From NCBI GenBank assembly GCA_049325595.1, contig JBMOLF010000010.1, positions 96,001 to 160,000 on the forward strand: 64,000 nt of DNA, in the 5' to 3' direction. The DNA comes from Candidatus Babelota bacterium. Lineage in GTDB: Bacteria > Babelota > Babeliae > Babelales > Vermiphilaceae. The notes under the pieces are model-generated. The model did not search any database and was not told where the DNA came from. It saw only the letters and a program-made list of their open reading frames with translations. A program made the position numbers and the translations under genes. Positions 3,639 to 57,637 of this stretch are shown here, in pieces; position 1 is the stretch's first letter, and each line of letters opens with the position of its first letter.

Positions 3639-3715
3639 GTGCCTGTAGCTCAGCTGGATAGAGCAACGGATTTCTAATCCGTAGGTCATAGGTTCGAATC
3701 CTATCAGGCACACCA
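3639..3715 (+). tRNA. tRNA-Arg(UCU)
   Basis: Acceptor GTGCCTG/CAGGCAC, anticodon arm ACGGA-TTTCTAA-TCCGT, GGTTCGAATCC T-arm, encoded CCA; 77 nt. Confidence 0.97.
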
Positions 3716-5161
3716 AGTTTGACGTTCCGAACAATTTAAGATCAAATCAAATGGCTTTTGCGCCTCGTAGACGATGTTTTCACCATCCACCTGTAAGTTC
3801 GATAGTACGAGCTTAATTAATTGCCGTTTTTCTGTAACTTCAGAACTTTTAAAAATATCATAGGCGTGATTTGTCAGATCTAGTATGTATTTTGCGGTAA
3901 TATAGTAGTTATCTTCTGCCTCTTGTAAGCGCTCTAATTTGAGGGTTACTTCGGCAAGCTGATCTCTAAATGATTGGTAAAATTTGTCATACGCGCTCTC
4001 AGTAATTCTCCCTTTGAGTTTATCAAGGTATAAATTGTCCATCATTTTGGTCAGGGATTGGTGTTGGCCCGTAAGCTCTTTGTATTGTTTCGTTTGAAAA
4101 TCCATCTTATATTGGTGGACTTCATCCAGCGTTTGCTTGATAGTGGCTGCTACGTTGGCTGGCATTTGGAGATTCTTAAAAACTTGGCTGAGCTTTTCGG
4201 TTATTGTTTCTTCACGTAACCAGGCTGCACCATGCTTGCCGTTGTATTGGGTGCAATGGTAATACACAAAACCTTTATGCTTTTCTGGGGTGATTGCCAA
4301 TCCGCAGGTAGCGCATCGAAACATACCTCGATAGATATAGGGCAATCCGGCAAACTTGGCAGGCTTCTTTTTATAGCTTGCTTTTACTTCTTGCACTCGA
4401 TCAAAAAGAGTTTTGGGGATAAGTGGTGGATAACGATGGGGATAAAATTTATCATTTCTTTCCATCACCCCGTAATAGAAATGATTTTTGAGAATATGAT
4501 CGGTAAAGCCTTTAGACCAGGTAACGTTATAATCTTCTTTGAGCTTTGCCCGTAATAAATCCATGGAGTAAACCCCAGTGCCATACAGCTCAAATGCTTT
4601 TTGAACAATATAGGCCTTGTGATCATCAATGATAATATCTTTTTTACCATCCGGTGTTTTTATATTTTTGTATCCTAATGGCGCTTTACCAGGCAACTCG
4701 CCTTTGCGTAGCTTTTGCTCATTGGCACGGCGCACATTGTCGCTAATAGCATCAGAGTAATATTTGGCCAACCCTAAGCTGATGTTAAATTGAAACTTTT
4801 CAGTAGCGGATATCCTACTATTGATAACCTGCCCTTCTGAGACAAAGTGAAGCTCAATCTGATCACACAATGCTTTTTCGTATAATAAAGAAATACGCTT
4901 ATCAAATACATTACGGGAAAGCCGATCAACCTTATCGCAACATACGATAACTTTTTCTTTTTGACTCAAAATTAAATCGATAATGCGATCAAACTCAGAG
5001 CGCTCTAATGAGTAAGCGCTTTCATCAAAACTACAGATGTTTAAAATGGGGTAGCCTTTTTGCTCACAATAGCGCTCAAGGCGGGCAATCTGCGCAGGTA
5101 ATGAGTTACCGGCTTCTCGTTGTTCTTCAGTACTCACGCGGGCAATAAGAATGGCTTTCAT
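3704..5161 (-). CDS. Large serine recombinase (integrase)
   Basis: N-terminal ARVST catalytic Ser, DRLSR, recombinase domain (P.GY), zinc ribbon CATCG...YYHC, coiled coil; TGA stop at 3704-3706 inside the tRNA. Confidence 0.95.
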   Translation of the reverse strand: MKAILIARVSTEEQREAGNSLPAQIARLERYCEQKGYPILNICSFDESAYSLERSEFDRIIDLILSQKEKVIVCCDKVDRLSRNVFDKRISLLYEKALCDQIELHFVSEGQVINSRISATEKFQFNISLGLAKYYSDAISDNVRRANEQKLRKGELPGKAPLGYKNIKTPDGKKDIIIDDHKAYIVQKAFELYGTGVYSMDLLRAKLKEDYNVTWSKGFTDHILKNHFYYGVMERNDKFYPHRYPPLIPKTLFDRVQEVKASYKKKPAKFAGLPYIYRGMFRCATCGLAITPEKHKGFVYYHCTQYNGKHGAAWLREETITEKLSQVFKNLQMPANVAATIKQTLDEVHQYKMDFQTKQYKELTGQHQSLTKMMDNLYLDKLKGRITESAYDKFYQSFRDQLAEVTLKLERLQEAEDNYYITAKYILDLTNHAYDIFKSSEVTEKRQLIKLVLSNLQVDGENIVYEAQKPFDLILNCSERQTWCA

Positions 5162-5266
5162 GGTGGTCTCTGCTTAGTTGAAATTTTTAAATCCTTAGCA
5201 GTTTAGTGATTCATGAAAATATTTCTAGAGTTAATGACAGGGGCGTATGAAAAAAGTATCGTACCA

Positions 5267-5295
5267 TAGACAATGTATCATGATCGTGATACGAT
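5267..5295 (+). promoter_or_regulatory. Sigma70-like promoter of the TA operon with a palindromic operator
   Basis: TAGACA-17 bp-TACGAT with inverted repeat GTATCA-N6-TGATAC (5275-5292) over the spacer and -10. Confidence 0.6.
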
Positions 5296-5320
5296 AAGAT
5301 ATAAAAGTCTGGAGAAGTAA

Positions 5321-5704
5321 ATGTCTAAAAGTTATATAGTATATGAAGGCGAACAATTTACCATAGAATGGTATTTTGACAGCCGTGGAACAAGTCGGGC
5401 TCGGGAATATTTTAATGAATTATCACATGATAGAAAAAATAAATTTTCCTATCTGCTTTTTCTTCTTGCTAATAGAGGGAAAATATTCAACCAAGAAAAA
5501 TTTCGTTATGAAGGTGATCAGATATATGCTTTAAAGCCAACACCGGATCGGTTCTTATGCTTTTTCTATGATGGTTCAAAAATAATAATTACTAATGCAT
5601 ATGAAAAGAAAACAGCAAAGATGCCGGTGCGTGAGAAAGAAAGAGCATTAAAGGCAAAAGCTGATTATATAAAAAGATGTCAAGGAGGAACCTATTATGA
5701 CTAA
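5321..5704 (+). CDS. Type II toxin, RelE/ParE (HigB/Gp49-like) family
   Basis: 127 aa; IYALKP...RFLCFF...IIITNAYEKKTAKMP..E..RA; upstream of and overlapping an HTH gene. Confidence 0.85.
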   Translation: MSKSYIVYEGEQFTIEWYFDSRGTSRAREYFNELSHDRKNKFSYLLFLLANRGKIFNQEKFRYEGDQIYALKPTPDRFLCFFYDGSKIIITNAYEKKTAKMPVREKERALKAKADYIKRCQGGTYYD

Positions 5705-6029
5705 AAAAAAGATGAAATCTACTCTTGAGGAACATATTGAATCAATGACGCCAAAACAACGAAGAGAGTTTGAAGCTGAATATCAAGAGCTTTTATTGTC
5801 TGAATTGCTTTTAGCTGCTATGGCCAAAGATGAAGTTTCAGTAAGAGAGCTGGCTAGAATGGCTGGTGTATCGCCTACGGTAGTGCAAGCAATGCGCACG
5901 GGAACAAAAAAAGATTTTAGCATGCAGAGCTTTTTTAAAGTGTTAAAAGGTCTTGGTTGTAAAAAAATAATGGTAGAGCTTAATGGTCAATTAATCCCAT
6001 TAGATATATCTCAATCAATTAAAAAATAA
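5697..6029 (+). CDS. HTH (XRE-like) antitoxin
   Basis: SVRELARMAGVSPTVVQAM helix-turn-helix; overlaps the toxin stop, HigBA-type gene order. Confidence 0.85.
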   Translation: MTKKKMKSTLEEHIESMTPKQRREFEAEYQELLLSELLLAAMAKDEVSVRELARMAGVSPTVVQAMRTGTKKDFSMQSFFKVLKGLGCKKIMVELNGQLIPLDISQSIKK

Positions 6030-6205
6030 TGGCAAGAAGTAGAAATTATAAAGATCTATTAATTGAATCATTAAAAGATCCTACAGAAGCAGTAGGTTAT
6101 CTAAATGCCATTCTTGAAGACTACAAAGATAATGATGAAAAATCACAAATAGTATTGCAAGTAGTACTAAAAGATATCGCGCAAGCACAAAAAAATTATC
6201 GTTAA
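6029..6205 (+). CDS. 58-aa protein resembling the N-terminal half of addiction-module antidote (HI1420-like) proteins; not in the ORF track
   Basis: TAATG coupling to the antitoxin; MARSRNYKDLLIESLKDPTEAVGYLNAILED...LKDIAQAQ; stops where the HTH normally begins. Confidence 0.6.
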   Translation: MARSRNYKDLLIESLKDPTEAVGYLNAILEDYKDNDEKSQIVLQVVLKDIAQAQKNYR

Positions 6206-6230
6206 TGATACAGAGAGGAGCACTACAGAA

Positions 6231-6905
6231 ATGTGGTGCTCGTTTAATTACAACTTTTCAAGAGAGTTGCATGAGCTTAAAATGAGTAAAATACGCTGCT
6301 TATTAAAATATTGCGGGAAGTATTATTTAATCTGCTTTATTAGATTTGTGAAAGACAAGGTTTTAGTAAGCTTTACAAGTTCTCATTGGTCAGAAATATT
6401 TGGTTTGGAAATTGAACATCATTTTAATTATCCTAGTAATGGAAAATTACATAGCACTTACAATCATTTTGACAAGACTAATGATTCAGATAATTTTTTC
6501 ATTCATGCCTATAGCAATAAAATAGTTACTAAATCTTTTAAAAATGGCCAACAAAAAAAAGATGAACGCAACGGTAAAGAATTATTAAATCACTTTATTA
6601 ATAATAATTGTAGACCATTATCTGAATATGAAACTACAAGTACTTTTTTTGATTTTCCATGTATTGGATTTGCAATTTGCTCAATTCCAGAAGAGCAATT
6701 TAAAAAATTTCAAGCTTCATTCCCCAAAGAAAATGATGTGATAATTGACGCAGAGTTATGGAATGGTACTTGTGTGACTATAACGCCATATGTTGCAAAC
6801 AAAGAATATGAACTTTCTTTTTTTCCTTTTGCTATAAAAAGTGAAATCGACTGTGGAAAATTAAAAATTGGTATACGTGTAAGCCTCAATAAGCAAAATG
6901 TTTAA
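6231..6905 (+). CDS. Hypothetical protein (element cargo); start may be 6282
   Basis: 224-aa ORF with no recognised motif. Confidence 0.6.
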   Translation: MWCSFNYNFSRELHELKMSKIRCLLKYCGKYYLICFIRFVKDKVLVSFTSSHWSEIFGLEIEHHFNYPSNGKLHSTYNHFDKTNDSDNFFIHAYSNKIVTKSFKNGQQKKDERNGKELLNHFINNNCRPLSEYETTSTFFDFPCIGFAICSIPEEQFKKFQASFPKENDVIIDAELWNGTCVTITPYVANKEYELSFFPFAIKSEIDCGKLKIGIRVSLNKQNV

Positions 6906-8046
6906 GGTTTATTGGTTTAAATTTCTTTAAACATTCGCGCACCGTTTCAAATGGGCTTTGGGTACCAACTATTTTTACTTTTTGTACATCTTTAATAAGC
7001 CGATACCAGCTGCGTTGATTGCATTTGGCAAATAGCGCTCTTAGTTCCCGTATATTTACGACATCTAATGCTTTTGATAAGCCATAGGTAATTAAAATTT
7101 GCTTAGGGCTTAGTTCAGGATTGTTAATAATTAATGAAGCTAGCAATGCTTTATCGACCTGTCCTTCGTAGCCTTGGCGGAGTAGGATGGGTGCTTTGTA
7201 ATCCAAGATTGCTAATCGTGCCCTTTCAATCTCATCAAGATAATGTAAAAGAACTTTTTTAGAGATGGTTGGTTTGAATAAGCTTTTAAAAGAAAGATCT
7301 GATGGTATATGCAAAACTTTAAAAAGCTGTTTAATTTTGTGCCGTTTATTTAAACGTACTTCCATGCGCAAGATTTCAAGTTTGTTGCGATTATTAAATC
7401 TATCAAGAAAGTTTAATTGTAATTCGTTATCTTTTTCTAATGCACGTTTGCTGCTCGCTTGTGCTTTCTCAAGATCTTTTATTTTGTCATAGAATACCAC
7501 TTCATATGAGTTGCAATGCCATTTGTAGCTGTGGCCTTCATTGCGATAATCAGTTTGATTTACATCAAGAGTAAGCTTAGTGTTTGCTTCTTTAATTTTG
7601 TTTATGTAGTGGTAAGGTGTTGAGCCATCAGTTAGTGGAATATTTTTTGAGTAGTGGATAGCTGATAGCGGTGCTTTTGCTAATGTTGCTGGTGTTGTGT
7701 GTATGCCCATGTTTGCAAGCACCTGTGCAAGCTTATGAGTAAGTGCTGCAAAATCTTTGGCGCGTAATTCTTGAAAATTGTTACCAAACATGAGCTTTGG
7801 CAATGATAACTCAATTTTGAGCGACACTGTTGAACCACCTAATGGGTTGATGCGGTGAGCGAGAGTAAGGCATGGTTTGTAAATACCCAATGCAAATTCC
7901 CTTTTGGTGGGATTTTGTTTTGATTGGATGCCGTGCGATTGGTTCGTGTAAGGTTGTAAAACCCATTGCGCTGATGGTGAAAATAATTCAGGATCAGTGA
8001 GCGTAAATTGGTCTTTGCGTAAAAGAATTACTACCGTGTCTATCAT
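6886..8046 (-). CDS. Putative rolling-circle replication initiator (Rep_trans / phage gII-X-like)
   Basis: MIDT start behind GAGG; ELSLPKL.FGNN, VVFYDK..DLEK and ILRMEVRL resemble the YDK and R.E.RL motifs of this superfamily. Confidence 0.65.
   Translation of the reverse strand: MIDTVVILLRKDQFTLTDPELFSPSAQWVLQPYTNQSHGIQSKQNPTKREFALGIYKPCLTLAHRINPLGGSTVSLKIELSLPKLMFGNNFQELRAKDFAALTHKLAQVLANMGIHTTPATLAKAPLSAIHYSKNIPLTDGSTPYHYINKIKEANTKLTLDVNQTDYRNEGHSYKWHCNSYEVVFYDKIKDLEKAQASSKRALEKDNELQLNFLDRFNNRNKLEILRMEVRLNKRHKIKQLFKVLHIPSDLSFKSLFKPTISKKVLLHYLDEIERARLAILDYKAPILLRQGYEGQVDKALLASLIINNPELSPKQILITYGLSKALDVVNIRELRALFAKCNQRSWYRLIKDVQKVKIVGTQSPFETVRECLKKFKPINLKHFAY
7158..7187 (-). repeat. 30-nt palindromic repeat in frame within the Rep-like gene
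   Basis: Minus strand TCCTAC-TCCG-CCAAGG-CTAC-GAAGGA-CAGG has the same layout as the tRNA-linked hairpins; encodes ILLRQGYEGQ. Confidence 0.7.
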
Positions 8047-8302
8047 ACAACACATACCTCAAACAAACGAATAAGCAATTGCTTAAAGATAATGCGGCAG
8101 CTAAAAAAGACAAGACCTGGTTTTTAATCCAGGCCTTACTTACTTCTTTTGATCGTACTTTTTTTGCACGACGACATATATTGGTTCGTTGATCAACTTG
8201 ATGCAGCAATGATATAAATGCTACAAGCTGTTGCAAATCTGATGGTGACAACGCAAATGTCTGCGCTCGTGTACGCGTACGAGTAGTTTTCTTTAATGTC
8301 AT
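7994..8302 (-). CDS. Small basic hypothetical protein upstream of rep
   Basis: 102-aa ORF overlapping the rep start; contains hairpin AAGACCTGG-N8-CCAGGCCTT (8112-8137). Confidence 0.45.
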   Translation of the reverse strand: MTLKKTTRTRTRAQTFALSPSDLQQLVAFISLLHQVDQRTNICRRAKKVRSKEVSKAWIKNQVLSFLAAALSLSNCLFVCLRYVLYDRHGSNSFTQRPIYAH

Positions 8303-8584
8303 AAAATTTCTGTTCTAACAATGAGTTGAATATATGAAGATTGCTTGCTTAGTAGGCAAATTGTTTTTGAGGATGATTATGCCTGGATTCAGATAACCAT
8401 AATGCATAATCAATAATATAGAACAGATTCATGGGTTTCTCTTGTGAGAATAAAGTTTGCTTTATTACAACGAGAAGCAAGTATAAATAGTTTGATATGG
8501 ATTGCAAGAAGATAACATTCTTTAAAATAAAAATAGGTGCAGATTTAATTGGCTACACCTATTTTAGAATAGATTTGGGAGAGA

Positions 8585-9136
8585 TTATCGTACTTCTGCA
8601 GTAACATCAAGAAGTGATTCAGATAAATCATTGCCTTTAAGATCTAAATTAATACCAAGGCCTATTTTCTTCTGATTAACTAAATCAATATTCTCTGACC
8701 AGTACGTTATGATGCCTGGGCCTGTACGTATTGAATTGAACATAACCCTAATACCATCTAAATCTGCAGGATTAATCCTTGGTCTTATAGTAATAAATAG
8801 AGCGCCTCTAACATTATTTCTTTCATCAGATACTTTAATTGTAGCATCTCTAATTATCGCATCTCCTGAACGTACTGGGCGCAAGGTTATTGGCACATTT
8901 TTTACTGTTTTTCCAGGTTTTAATAAGATTAATCTTATTTCTTCTTTAGAATAAACATCGCCAGGTAAATCACCGACAGCTTCAGACAAGAAAAGATCCT
9001 GATGAGTGTGATTAGTCACTTGAGCATAGTAGGCAAAAACTTTATCAAGATTGTTTTGGTGTGGTTCTGCAGGCTGCATTGCATTTACAATTCCTAAAAC
9101 AGTGAATGTGAATATCATTTTCTTCATTAAATTCAT
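8585..9136 (-). CDS. Signal-peptide hypothetical protein
   Basis: MKKMIFTFTVLGIVNA-MQ; followed by hairpin AAAATAGGTG...CACCTATTTT near 8530-8565. Confidence 0.75.
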   Translation of the reverse strand: MNLMKKMIFTFTVLGIVNAMQPAEPHQNNLDKVFAYYAQVTNHTHQDLFLSEAVGDLPGDVYSKEEIRLILLKPGKTVKNVPITLRPVRSGDAIIRDATIKVSDERNNVRGALFITIRPRINPADLDGIRVMFNSIRTGPGIITYWSENIDLVNQKKIGLGINLDLKGNDLSESLLDVTAEVR

Positions 9137-9651
9137 TTGGAATTTCCCTTAAAAAAATTTATTAACCTATACTAAGAATAACAAAAGAGATATTCTAATA
9201 GCAATAAATCGCAGGGAAAAGATGAATAAAAAATCTGTAATTTTACATTTATATAAATAATCAAACTTAAGTATTCAAACTAAGACCTACTTCCGAAAAT
9301 AACGTTTGCAGGTTTATTAAGCTCACGGTAAACTCAATTTCGCCGTTCCTGAACATATCTATAAAGTGATGATGTATGTAGTTGATATGGCTGCACTGCA
9401 AAATATAATAGCTTATGGAGCAAAAAAATTAGTTTAAAATTGATTAATTTTTGCACTGCATATTGCATGTAGCGGCTTGTAAAAGAACGTTATGAATGAT
9501 CAATCTGAGTGAGCACACATTATTGCTCAAAAATCTGTGTAATTAGAAATAGATTTTCTTGAGGCGTATCTCTTGGTACCATTAGAGCTACATTATATTT
9601 GTATATATTTTGTATTATGAAATTGTATTTTAAAGGTTTTAAAAAAGATTC

Positions 9652-10524: not shown

Positions 10525-11496
10525 TTAGAAATCATTAAAATTCATCTCTTCTAAATAGTTTTGAGATTCATCGTATGAGCATTGATTAAGTTGGTAAGCA
10601 TAATAATTTTCTGGTGATTGTGTTATGTCATTAAGAGCGATTACATTGGGCCTTATACCCGGCTGATATGAAGCGACAATTTTTTGTACAGGTGTTTTTA
10701 GTTGACTGTTTTCTAATTCACTGTTGTAAAGAGCACATTCATTAAGGTAATGATCTTTAAGGATTTTATATTTTTCAAATTTTTCCTTGCATCTAGGACA
10801 AGTAAAAAAAATTTTATCAAAATGTTTTACATAACAGTTTGCTACTGAATCTATTTGCCGGTCGTCACAAAAAGAACAAAATTTATAAGGACAATGATAA
10901 AATCTATCTAGATCACGATTAAACTTAATACATTGTTTTAATTGTTCCCAAGTTTTGATATGCAATTTATTGGGTTGATTAGGATTACCAAAATTTTTTT
11001 CAATTTGTTGATCAATGTATGAATCAAAATATTTTTTATGATCAAAATCATTGCTTTCTAATTTATTACTCTCAATTTCTTGATACGAATTGTTTTGCTC
11101 AACTCTTTTGTTCTCGCTCTCAATTGGCGTTGATTGCTGTAATTGAGCAATTTGTTTATCGTCATTATCATCTTCGATAATGATGATATTGTTGTTCTGA
11201 TTTAATTTGTTACGGCCAGTAAAAAAAATGAGTTTAGGGGTTTTAGGTTGAGTTGGCTTTATAATAATGCGAGGAGTCTTATTACTGGGTTTTTTATCAA
11301 AAAGAATATTATCAGGCTGTGTATTTACACGAATGCGTAAATGTTGATTGCGGTGAGGTTTGTTGTACTTTATGGAAAAATCTGGCTGTTTGCTGGTGTT
11401 ATCCATTGCGTGTATGACAGCATTAATAATAAACAAACAACAAACTCGGTATTGTTTTGATGTTTTGCTTGATTGATTGTTTATATACTGAGCCAT
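10525..11496 (-). CDS. Signal-peptide zinc-finger protein (paralog 4)
   Basis: Hydrophobic stretch ending VIHA-MD; YHCPYKFC...VANCYVKHF and FTCPRC-x12-H-x4-C; N/Q-rich regions. Confidence 0.8.
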   Translation of the reverse strand: MAQYINNQSSKTSKQYRVCCLFIINAVIHAMDNTSKQPDFSIKYNKPHRNQHLRIRVNTQPDNILFDKKPSNKTPRIIIKPTQPKTPKLIFFTGRNKLNQNNNIIIIEDDNDDKQIAQLQQSTPIESENKRVEQNNSYQEIESNKLESNDFDHKKYFDSYIDQQIEKNFGNPNQPNKLHIKTWEQLKQCIKFNRDLDRFYHCPYKFCSFCDDRQIDSVANCYVKHFDKIFFTCPRCKEKFEKYKILKDHYLNECALYNSELENSQLKTPVQKIVASYQPGIRPNVIALNDITQSPENYYAYQLNQCSYDESQNYLEEMNFNDF

Positions 11497-53678: not shown

Positions 53679-53854
53679 GGCCTGCCAGTCGTAGCCGATT
53701 TATACATATTAGCCCGTGCTATGCTTATCCAGGCCTATTGGCTTGGCACGTGTGCGGCATAGCCTTTGGCGACGACGTAAGCTATGCAGGGCATGCTTCA
53801 TTGTTAAAATGATTTTATGGCTGTGCCATGTGTAGTTCGTAGAACGAAACATGG
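53678..53854. repeat. Composite palindromic repeat array 3' of tRNA-Ser(UGA)
   Basis: Proximal unit (minus, 53854-53818) CCATGT-TTCG-TTCTACGAA-CTAC-ACATGG-CACAGCCA; inverted unit 53712-53800; partial unit from 53678. Confidence 0.75.
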
Positions 53855-57197: not shown

Positions 57198-57361
57198 TGG
57201 CTTGTCAGCTGTAGCGGGCAATGTTTATAGTGTTTAGTCCAGCCTGCGTGTCTCACTTTGTTCGCTTACTTCGGCGGACAGCTTTCGCCACTTTTTTTAT
57301 AATAATTTATTATTCATTTGAAAGAATATGGCTTGCCAGCTGTAGCTTTAGCGAAAGCTGG
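57198..57361. repeat. Composite palindromic repeat array 3' of tRNA-Arg(ACG)
   Basis: Proximal unit (minus, 57361-57329) CCAGCT-TTCG-CTAAAG-CTAC-AGCTGG-CAAGCCA; inverted unit 57237-57288; partial direct copy from 57198. Confidence 0.8.
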
Positions 57362-57478: not shown

Positions 57479-57637
57479 TGGTTGTGCCATGCAAAGTTCA
57501 TAGAACGGTCCGTCTACGCTTATCCGGGTCATCAGACTCGGCAAGCTTCATCGGACAGCCTTCGCAATTATATATCAAAGATATTTTTAATACCTTAACA
57601 TGGCCTGCCAGTCGGAGCCTTTATTGGCGAAGACTGG
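57479..57637. repeat. Composite palindromic repeat array 3' of tRNA-Ser(GCU)
   Basis: Proximal unit (minus, 57637-57601) CCAGTC-TTCG-CCAATAAAGG-CTCC-GACTGG-CAGGCCA; inverted unit 57508-57565; partial unit from 57479. Confidence 0.8.

What the first reader, a model, noticed from the sequence alone, without database searches (positions are those of the whole stretch)
3639..9368. Serine integrase whose C-terminus appears to be swapped by integration into tRNA-Arg
Seen: the integrase reads ...SERQTWCA-stop, where TGG TGT GCC TGA is the antisense of the tRNA 3' end, so the att junction lies within the coding sequence. About 5.6 kb away, on the same strand and beyond the last cargo gene, is an orphan 33-codon frame (9368-9267) HFIDMFRNGEIEFTVSLINLQTLFSEVGLSLNT-stop. 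Inference: circularisation would fuse it in frame to give ...W-C-(A/H)-F-I-D-M-F-R-N..., so the excised and integrated elements would encode integrases with different C-termini. That could be a built-in directionality or inactivation switch, analogous to the split SSV1-type tyrosine integrases. From memory this tail resembles the ends of related serine recombinases, but that is unverified. Against: no duplicated tRNA 3' end is visible at the proposed attR.
Basis: partly seen in the sequence, partly recalled or inferred. Interest (0 to 1): 0.75.

Follow-up and report, generated by a model that had tools for sequence, protein, structure and literature searches.

The report
Serine integrase gene split by integration
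A small mobile island next to a tRNA-Arg gene has its recombination site inside its own serine-integrase gene, so the inserted copy makes a shortened enzyme and the conserved last 33 codons lie stranded at the island's far end; this copy looks no longer able to excise.

Summary
The 485-aa large serine integrase (3704-5161, minus strand) ends W-C-A-stop, read antisense off the last 12 bases of tRNA-Arg(TCT). The 33-codon orphan frame (9368-9270, stop 9269-9267) is there.

The reading is supported for the family. In Babeliales relatives the integrase's last conserved residue is always this Trp, whose codon is the antisense of a tRNA's CCA (61 of 87 pattern matches abut a called tRNA, of eight anticodon types). 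The orphan peptide is a conserved module. A profile built without the window ranks it first in the whole genome (E 4.8e-12). It occurs in 84 of 201 Dependentiae genomes, almost always as a short orphan frame on the integrase strand at the island's far end. The central dinucleotide, taken in the tail's reading frame, is the same at both island ends in 25 of 28 loci. Unsplit integrases carry the tail contiguously.

The window's copy is probably fixed. Its far-end core has no copy of the tRNA end, and the central dinucleotide differs (GT against AT).

Precedents exist: Mx8 IntP, archaeal SSV-type integrases, and Dehalococcoides DsiB, where the overlap was noted. This scan has recorded the same layout on other DNA before. 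The tail's function is untested.

The parts
3639..3715 (+). tRNA-Arg(TCT), the integration target. It is intact, and its last bases are also the last codons of the integrase on the other strand.
   Evidence: ARAGORN. It is the only tRNA-Arg(tct) in the genome.
3704..5161 (-). Large serine integrase, integrated (short) form, 485 aa, ending W483-C484-A485-stop read off the tRNA antisense.
   Evidence: ORF and translation. Pfam gives Resolvase E 1.2e-19, Recombinase E 8.3e-9, and Zn_ribbon_recom E 8.3e-5, which at 23.3 bits is below the 25.3 cut-off. Full-length relatives are 57-69% identical.
3710..3711 (.). Predicted central (crossover) dinucleotide of attL: GT on the integrase strand, the 2nd and 3rd base of the codon after W.
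   Evidence: Inferred from relatives. The cores shared by attL and attR intersect at this codon. The GTCAAC / GTC(T)AC inverted repeats lie 6 nt to either side of it.
3712..3741 (-). P' arm of the attachment site. It also encodes integrase residues of about 475-484.
   Evidence: The consensus P' arm is conserved whichever tRNA is occupied.
5321..5704 (+). Cargo: Gp49/HigB-like toxin candidate.
   Evidence: Pfam PF05973, E 1.1e-10. Relatives occur in 8 related loci.
5697..6029 (+). Cargo: HTH (Cro/C1-type) protein, the likely antitoxin partner.
   Evidence: Pfam HTH_26, E 5e-5. PHROG transcriptional regulators. Relatives occur in 9 loci.
6029..6905 (+). Two cargo ORFs (58 aa and 224 aa) of unknown function.
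   Evidence: No Pfam or NCBIfam family. The 58-aa ORF has only one weak PHROG match of unknown function (phrog_5645, E 0.004); the 224-aa ORF has none.
6886..8055 (-). Second core gene of the element, 389 aa, on the integrase strand. Possibly a rolling-circle replication initiator (Phage_CRI/G2P-like). This is a lead only.
   Evidence: tblastn finds it at about 60% identity in 69 related loci. ESM Atlas features score 0.97 and structure TM is 0.54-0.86 to clusters partly carrying PF05144. Against this, Pfam finds it in 0 of 10 members and my own AF2 model has pLDDT 48.
8585..9136 (-). 183-aa ORF between the core gene and the tail. Function unknown.
   Evidence: No family found. A 32%-identical relative lies in the variable region of the sister genome.
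9267..9368 (-). Orphan C-terminal tail of the integrase (33 codons plus the stop). Its first codons double as the P arm.
   Evidence: Translation. Top genome-wide hit of the tail profile built without the window, E 4.8e-12. Aligned with 25 other tails.
9369..9374 (.). Degenerate attR core. Relatives at the same tRNA carry a copy of the tRNA end here (TGG TGT on the integrase strand); the window has CAT CAT, with central dinucleotide AT instead of GT.
   Evidence: Intact cores at tRNA-Arg(TCT) are seen in L113 and L052, and partly in L111.

Best explanation
The stretch 3710-9370 is a roughly 5.65-kb integrative element inserted at the 3' end of tRNA-Arg(TCT). It belongs to a large Babeliales/Dependentiae family of elements. 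Two genes are shared across that family: a large serine integrase and a 389-aa protein that may start replication.

The element's attachment site, attP, lies inside the integrase gene. The P' arm encodes the last conserved residues up to Trp483. The crossover dinucleotide lies in the next codon, and the P arm encodes the start of a conserved tail of about 33-45 aa.

The Trp codon TGG is the antisense of the universal CCA, and the next codon is the antisense of the discriminator base and the acceptor end. The element therefore brings its own copy of the last 4-6 bases of the tRNA and leaves the tRNA intact.

Integration separates the tail from the gene. The inserted copy encodes a short enzyme that stops a few codons into the tRNA antisense. 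The free circle would encode the long enzyme with the tail. So would the older copy in a tandem array, which becomes joined to the newcomer's tail.

Shown: the anatomy, the conservation of the tail, the in-frame shared cores in relatives, and the existence of contiguous forms. Inferred: that the two isoforms differ in activity, for example that the long form is needed for integration and the short form is weaker or changed, which would lock or bias the direction.

The window's own copy has lost its attR core. It is most likely a fixed, non-excising resident that still holds an intact short integrase gene.
For: - **tRNA junction.** In all 12 full-length relatives from 41 related genomes the match ends at residue 483 or 485, and 13 of 15 loci have a tRNA abutting that end. 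Across 91 locus sequences, 61 of 87 matches to the C-terminal pattern have the Trp codon within 3 nt of the 3' end of a called tRNA: Glu-TTC 17, Asp 13, Asn 11, Arg-TCT 7, Gln 6, Arg-TCG 3, Glu-CTC 2, Arg-CCT 2. After the Trp the residues follow the tRNA.
- **Independent second case.** L031 has a 12-nt direct repeat at the tRNA-Glu end and again 10.4 kb away.
- **Strand and position of tails.** A profile from the window and L031 tails finds 36 hits at E<=1e-3 in 84 non-duplicate loci, the two seeds included. Of these, 35 are on the integrase strand and 30 lie upstream of a recognised integrase end.
- **Shared core.** The central dinucleotide is the same at attL and attR, taken in the tail's frame, in 25 of 28 loci. 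Shared cores are 4-12 nt long.
- **Site symmetry.** The inverted repeat GTCAAC / GTC(T)AC lies 6 nt to each side of that dinucleotide.
- **Contiguous forms.** These are a 522-aa integrase (534-aa open frame; L051, 33% identical to the window's, aligned through the Trp), its 520-aa relative, and four distant LSRs of 546-597 aa ending in the tail. In that second subfamily, 2 of the 11 proteins found carry the canonical tail contiguously, 8 read antisense into tRNAs, and 1 runs on past the Trp into another, tail-like sequence.
- **L057.** A 94-nt stretch, 100% identical to the integrase 3' end, is fused to the tail.
- **No independent start.** 16 of 30 orphan tails have no ATG, GTG or TTG between the upstream stop and the tail.
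- **Distribution.** The tail occurs in 84 of 201 Dependentiae genomes. Among the listed matches the open frames are mostly 33-120 aa, and one is 534 aa.
- **The window's own frame.** E 4.8e-12, rank 1 of 49,971 segments, with a profile that excludes it.
Against: - No circle junction or empty site was seen. The runs that hold this DNA are kept as contigs only and showed neither.
- The window's attR has no copy of the tRNA end, and its central dinucleotide differs from attL (GT against AT). In-frame fusion cannot be shown for this copy.
- The only short identity between the two ends of the window element is a 4-mer. A crossover there would be out of frame and give a stop two codons on (my reading).
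- The tail folds with low confidence (pLDDT 35-53), and no solved recombinase carries it. Its role is therefore unknown.
- The sister genome is not a clean empty site.
- In 3 of 28 loci the dinucleotides differ (window, L037, L044).
- Some contiguous forms could be products of tandem arrays rather than free circles. That is inference.
Confidence: 0.8

Rival explanations
1. This is an ordinary overlap. The integrase is complete at 485 aa, the element simply carries the tRNA's 3' end as many tRNA islands do, and the 33-codon frame is an unrelated or chance open frame.
For: No duplicated tRNA end at the far side in the window. The short form keeps all catalytic and zinc-ribbon positions that are invariant in 12 family members.
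Against: The frame is the top genome-wide hit of a profile built from other loci. It is found contiguous with integrases. Its position, strand and frame relative to the core are conserved in relatives.
Confidence: 0.04
2. The conserved far-end sequence is kept only as DNA, as the P arm bound by the integrase, or as a separate small gene. It is not part of the integrase protein.
For: The first 8 or so codons of the tail coincide with the P arm, which mirrors the P' arm. 14 of 30 orphan frames do have a possible start codon upstream. The window's frame can start at a TTG.
Against: Conservation runs about 100 nt from the core, well past the roughly 25-nt half-site usual for large serine integrases (established knowledge, not tested here). 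It follows an amino-acid pattern across sequences only 27-49% identical. 16 of 30 frames have no start codon. The same peptide ends uninterrupted integrase ORFs.
Confidence: 0.07
3. The window's element is still mobile and recombines at the 4-nt identity that follows the CCA (3715-3718 and 9363-9366). This would restore an intact tRNA with its flank and give a circle whose integrase stops two codons after Thr482, without the tail.
For: That 4-mer is the only identity between the two junctions. A crossover there would give a sensible attB with a complete tRNA including CCA (read).
Against: It lies 5 nt from the symmetry centre used by the family. It would make the tail useless, although the tail is conserved here. 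A 4-mer match within about 10 nt is easily chance.
Confidence: 0.08

Closest known systems
Dehalococcoides ssrA genomic islands and their serine recombinase DsiB (McMurdie et al. 2011, PMC3146451; passages read)
   Same: A large serine recombinase sits next to attL, with its 3' end always overlapping the attachment site at the tRNA-like 3' end of an RNA gene. The authors already suggested that the gene may be fully functional only on the circle, or beside an adjacent island that supplies the 3' fragment.
   Different: The target there is ssrA (crossover placed in the T-loop, 20-bp repeat) rather than the acceptor/CCA end of ordinary tRNAs. No conserved detached tail was shown: the authors report that the C-terminal part is divergent. 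A second small recombinase, DsiA, accompanies DsiB; no other ORF of the window's element matched a resolvase domain.
Myxophage Mx8 integrase (review PMC6070905, passage read; Tojo et al. 1996 seen only as a reference title)
   Same: attP lies within the integrase coding sequence, so integration creates a gene with a new 3' end. The review says the changed enzyme is not inactivated but altered in specificity. This makes it a bacterial precedent for a C-terminus swap.
   Different: It is a tyrosine recombinase of a phage, and the family and mechanism are unrelated.
SSV-type 'suicidal' integrases of archaeal viruses and plasmids (review PMC8371274, passages read; PMC7253208, abstract only)
   Same: The recombination site lies inside the integrase's own ORF, and integration partitions the gene. 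This has been proposed as a directionality control without an RDF.
   Different: These are tyrosine recombinases and the gene is cut into two large pieces. The review states that self-disrupting recombinases are found only in archaea. Here only the last 33-45 residues are removed, and all catalytic and DNA-binding domains remain.
Phage-type large serine integrases (phiC31, Bxb1, A118/LI, SPbeta SprA, CcrB)
   Same: Domain order of resolvase, recombinase and zinc ribbon. NCBIfam's best partial matches are CcrB and XisF, far below their cut-offs. Short, imperfectly palindromic att sites around a central dinucleotide are inferred.
   Different: From memory, those att sites lie outside the integrase ORF, and directionality is set by a separate RDF protein. 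None of the solved chains carries the tail. The Islander paper (2014, PMC4383910, passages read) says serine integrases were not known to target tRNA genes.

Membership tests
Large serine recombinase (LSR / serine integrase) | N-terminal resolvase-type catalytic domain with the serine nucleophile | tested here: met
   PF00239, E 1.2e-19, residues 3-155. R8 and S10 are invariant in 12 family members.
Large serine recombinase (LSR / serine integrase) | Recombinase domain (PF07508) followed by a zinc beta-ribbon domain | tested here: met
   PF07508, E 8.3e-9. PF13408, E 8.3e-5, at 23.3 bits just under the 25.3-bit cut-off. C283, C286 and C303 are invariant.
Large serine recombinase (LSR / serine integrase) | Long coiled-coil inserted in the zinc-ribbon domain | tested here: inconclusive
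   Seen only in the AF2 model of the 33%-identical relative P0002: helices 339-386 and 392-417, at pLDDT about 76-93. The window protein itself was not modelled.
Large serine recombinase (LSR / serine integrase) | Short att sites with inverted-repeat arms around a 2-bp crossover | tested here: met
   Comparative evidence only. Inverted hexamers lie 6 nt each side of a dinucleotide that is the same at attL and attR in 25 of 28 loci. There is no biochemical test.
Integrases whose attP lies in their own gene (Mx8 IntP, SSV-type) | Recombination site inside the integrase ORF, so that integration changes or splits the product | tested here: met
   for the layout; for the unsplit forms.
Integrases whose attP lies in their own gene (Mx8 IntP, SSV-type) | Tyrosine recombinase catalytic fold | tested here: not met
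   The protein is a serine recombinase. It works like these systems in layout but is not a member.
SSV-type suicidal integrases | The gene is cut into two parts, neither of which holds a complete enzyme | tested here: not met
   The short form keeps all three Pfam domains and every position invariant in the family. Only the last 33 codons are detached.
DsiB-type ssrA islands | Target is the 3' end of ssrA (tmRNA gene), with a co-encoded small recombinase DsiA | tested here: not met
   The targets are tRNA genes of eight anticodon types. None of the other island ORFs matched a resolvase domain.
DsiB-type ssrA islands | The 3' end of the serine recombinase gene overlaps attL, with the stop codon outside the island | tested here: met
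   The stop at 3704-3706 lies left of the predicted crossover at 3710-3711.

The most novel reading that the evidence does not exclude
A widespread bacterial clade of large serine integrases sets its directionality through its own gene structure instead of a separate RDF. Only the free circle, or a copy reconstituted in a tandem array, makes the long, tail-bearing enzyme that integrates. The inserted copy makes a tail-less enzyme with reduced or altered activity. The crossover sits at the universal acceptor/CCA end, so the same design can move between tRNA species: eight anticodon types are seen. Many copies, like this window's, end up locked in place.
Probability: 0.3. Interest if true: 0.8.

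Novelty: new variant of a known kind. Interest (0 to 1): 0.6.

Why it matters
- **Directionality.** Large serine integrases are studied and used as genome-engineering tools because their direction is thought to be set only by a separate factor, the RDF. A natural family whose gene is rewritten by each integration would add a second, built-in way to couple enzyme form to the state of the element.
- **Target range.** These enzymes target the acceptor/CCA end of many different tRNAs. A 2014 survey said serine integrases were not known to do this.
- **Genome annotation.** For Dependentiae and similar small genomes, this explains the many short orphan frames and integrase fragments next to tRNA genes.

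Tried and rejected
- **Empty-site comparison.** The same-genus genome G001 has no integrase. Its tRNA-Arg(TCT) is followed by a remnant of about 35 nt of the integrase 3' end (alignment score 55 against a shuffle maximum of 41) and then by 16 kb of non-homologous, variable DNA. No boundary could be read from it. I thought I saw a tail remnant there, but the far-side alignment is not significant (34 against a shuffle 95th percentile of 39), so I dropped it.
- **Circle junction from reads.** One run holds the stretch fully and two hold small shares. All are kept as contigs, and the long contig was filtered out. No joint linking about 9370 to about 3710 and no empty site was seen. This is no evidence either way.
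- **Structure of the tail.** The AF2 model of the natural 522-aa unsplit relative, with a 25-row alignment, has mean pLDDT 80.7 overall but 35-53 over the tail, so no fold or contact can be claimed.
- **Structure of the 389-aa core protein.** Mean pLDDT 48. I did not send it to a fold search.
- **Sequence searches for the 389-aa protein.** Pfam 0 of 10 members, NCBIfam nothing meaningful, PHROGs none, PDB profile none.
- **Tail profile against PDB sequences.** Seven irrelevant hits at E about 1.
- **Direct or inverted repeats of attL in each locus by BLAST-short.** Only L031 gave a clear repeat. The others needed the tail profile.
- **The 4-nt identity as crossover for the window.** Rejected as the family mechanism; see the rival explanations.
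- **Literature.** Searches found no description of a serine integrase with a conserved detached tail at tRNA genes. Durrant et al. 2022 (PMC10083194; terms searched in the text) does not mention tRNA targets or ORF overlap. Its supplements were not read.
Full report
**1. What is in the window**

ARAGORN finds tRNA-Arg(tct) at 3639-3715 on the + strand. On the other strand the ORF 3704-5161 encodes a 485-aa protein ending ...SERQTWCA-stop. Reading, W483 is 3715-3713, which is the antisense of the tRNA's CCA. C484 is 3712-3710, A485 is 3709-3707 and the stop is 3706-3704.

Pfam places a resolvase domain (E 1.2e-19), a recombinase domain (E 8.3e-9) and a zinc-ribbon domain (E 8.3e-5, just under its cut-off) in the usual order of a large serine recombinase.

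**2. The junction with a tRNA is a family trait**

The window lies in a 1.29-Mb Babeliales/Dependentiae assembly (record titles).

- Full-length relatives (57-69% identical) occur in 12 places among 41 related genomes, and all match up to residue 483 or 485.
- In 13 of 15 loci scanned, a tRNA abuts that end.
- With 80 more loci from GTDB genomes, 61 of 87 matches to the C-terminal pattern have the Trp codon within 3 nt of the 3' end of a called tRNA. The tRNAs are Glu-TTC, Asp, Asn, Arg-TCT, Gln, Arg-TCG, Glu-CTC and Arg-CCT.
- Of the 26 other matches, at least seven are not integrase ends. Several more still read the antisense of a T-arm, or stop at a contig end.
- Up to the Trp the sequence is conserved whichever tRNA is occupied. 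After it the residues follow the tRNA.

**3. The orphan frame is the enzyme's real tail**

- In L031 (tRNA-Glu) a 12-nt direct repeat marks both island ends.
- A profile from these two peptides finds 36 hits at E<=1e-3 in 84 non-duplicate loci, the two seeds included. 35 are on the integrase strand and one on the other strand. 30 lie upstream of a recognised integrase end, at 4.6-15.5 kb.
- A second profile, from 31 tails and without the window, ranks the window's frame first among 49,971 six-frame segments of the whole genome (E 4.8e-12).
- In a sample of 201 genomes of the phylum, 84 have the tail. Among the listed matches the open frames are mostly 33-120 aa, and one is 534 aa.
- 16 of 30 orphan tails have no possible start codon between the upstream stop and the tail.
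- The same peptide ends uninterrupted integrase genes:
  - a 522-aa protein (534-aa open frame) in L051, 33% identical to the window's and aligned through the Trp;
  - its 520-aa relative;
  - four distant recombinases of 546-597 aa.
- In the L051 subfamily, 2 of the 11 proteins found carry the canonical tail contiguously, 8 run antisense into tRNAs, and 1 runs on past the Trp into another, tail-like sequence.
- In L057 a 94-nt stretch, 100% identical to the integrase 3' end, is joined directly to the tail, 5.65 kb from the copy that ends in tRNA-Asp.

**4. Where the crossover lies**

The sequences shared by the two ends are 4-12 nt long. They intersect at the codon after the Trp.

Taking the 2nd and 3rd base of that codon as the centre, the dinucleotide is the same at both ends, in the tail's frame, in 25 of 28 non-duplicate loci. 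The hexamers GTCAAC and GTC(T)AC lie as an inverted repeat 6 nt to either side. This is the layout expected of a serine-integrase attP (established knowledge of the family; not tested biochemically here).

It follows that the element supplies the last bases of the tRNA, that the tRNA stays whole, and that rejoining the ends gives W, two residues, then the tail, in frame. In the Asn class the far end has no TGG. This fits tRNA genes that did not encode CCA before insertion (inference).

**5. The window's own copy**

Relatives at the same tRNA-Arg(TCT) keep TGG TGT before the tail (L113 and L052), or part of it (L111). The window has CAT CAT there, so there is no copy of the tRNA end, and the central dinucleotide is AT against GT at the tRNA side.

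All 38 tRNAs of this genome encode CCA, so the original site should have left one. I infer a small deletion or replacement at 9369-9374. Because serine recombinases need matching central dinucleotides to religate (established knowledge), this copy is probably fixed.

The sister species has a remnant of about 35 nt of an integrase 3' end after the same tRNA, which suggests long residence at this site. The genome also holds degraded integrases at tRNA-Asp and tRNA-Glu, and three more tails.

The short integrase gene itself keeps every position that is invariant in the family.

**6. The rest of the element**

- A Gp49-like/HTH pair, a likely toxin-antitoxin.
- Two ORFs of unknown function.
- A 389-aa ORF on the integrase strand that is conserved in 69 related loci. 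The ESM Atlas places it next to clusters partly annotated as Phage_CRI/G2P replication proteins. Pfam finds nothing in 10 members, and my own model is poor. I treat a replication role for the circle as a lead, at about even odds.

**7. How it most likely works**

Shown:
- the anatomy;
- the conservation of the tail;
- the in-frame cores in relatives;
- the existence of unsplit forms.

Inferred:
- The free circle makes the long enzyme and the inserted copy the short one.
- The two forms differ in activity, so that integration changes the enzyme that made it.
- In tandem arrays the older integrase would be rejoined to the newcomer's tail, which may explain some contiguous genes.

The direction of any effect is unknown. 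The tail folds with low confidence, and no solved recombinase carries it.

**8. What is known**

- The Islander paper (2014) states that serine integrases were not known to target tRNA genes, and that the Mx8 and SSV integrases extend across attP.
- For Mx8, attP lies in the integrase coding sequence, and integration makes a new 3' end with changed specificity.
- McMurdie et al. 2011 noted that the serine recombinase gene dsiB always overlaps attL at its 3' end, and suggested that it may be fully functional only on the circle. They found the overlapping part divergent and showed no detached conserved tail.
- My searches found no description of the present design. Supplements were not read.
- This scan has noted the same layout at least seven times on other genomes. 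One of those reports was later marked as partly fallen, without saying which part.

**9. Verdict**

For this copy, excision is doubtful. It is a new variant of a known kind of layout, and the functional claim is still open.

Noticed in passing
window 57300-57358, 57575-57634 and 53790-53851 (downstream of tRNA-Arg(ACG), tRNA-Ser(GCT) and tRNA-Ser(TGA), all on the - strand); also elsewhere in the genome: Nine of the genome's 38 tRNAs are followed by a shared trailer: CCA, two bases, CTTCG or TTTCG, a hairpin, then TGGC-3 nt-GCCA (TGGC alone after tRNA-Gln). Some trailers are identical for 60 nt behind different tRNAs. The same motif forms the chromosomal flank of attR in relatives at other tRNAs. 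It could be the B' half-site preferred by these integrases, or the decayed remains of earlier elements, since by eye its start resembles the P' arm.
   Followed up: partly
own genome C17:203-520 (-), outside the window: A 38-codon C-terminal integrase fragment ending in the Trp is followed by about 75 nt that read as the antisense of the trailer motif, and then by W-R plus a full tail. This suggests nested or tandem insertions that use the trailer's GCCA end as a target.
   Followed up: partly
L057:5706-5799 and 11359-11452: A 94-nt perfect direct repeat of the integrase 3' end lies at both ends of a 5.65-kb element. The left copy is fused to the tail. It may be a remnant of a tandem dimer, or an assembly that wrapped round a circular form.
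   Followed up: partly
window 6886-8055 (-): A 389-aa ORF with no Pfam, PHROG or NCBIfam family is the most conserved gene of these elements after the integrase (69 loci at about 60% identity). The ESM Atlas puts it near Phage_CRI/G2P rolling-circle replication proteins.
   Followed up: partly
window 5232-6021: In run X3 a contig of a related strain joins 5232 to 6021 with 405 other letters in between. The Gp49/HTH pair is therefore replaced by something else in that relative, so the cargo module is exchangeable.
   Followed up: no
own genome C10:282430-283951 and C7:6916-8440, outside the window: Two more integrases of the same family lie at tRNA-Asp and tRNA-Glu, both broken by stops or frameshifts. 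More orphan tails lie on C19 and C15.
   Followed up: partly
L062, L069, L072, L084 and protein P0008: Some integrases run on past the Trp into a different but mutually similar sequence (W-L-x-x-L-x-T-L-R-x-x-x-W...) instead of a tRNA. This may be a variant tail or another kind of target.
   Followed up: no
L051:11440-12155: The split-type integrase and the unsplit 522-aa integrase converge on a roughly 700-nt gap with no tRNA called.
   Followed up: no
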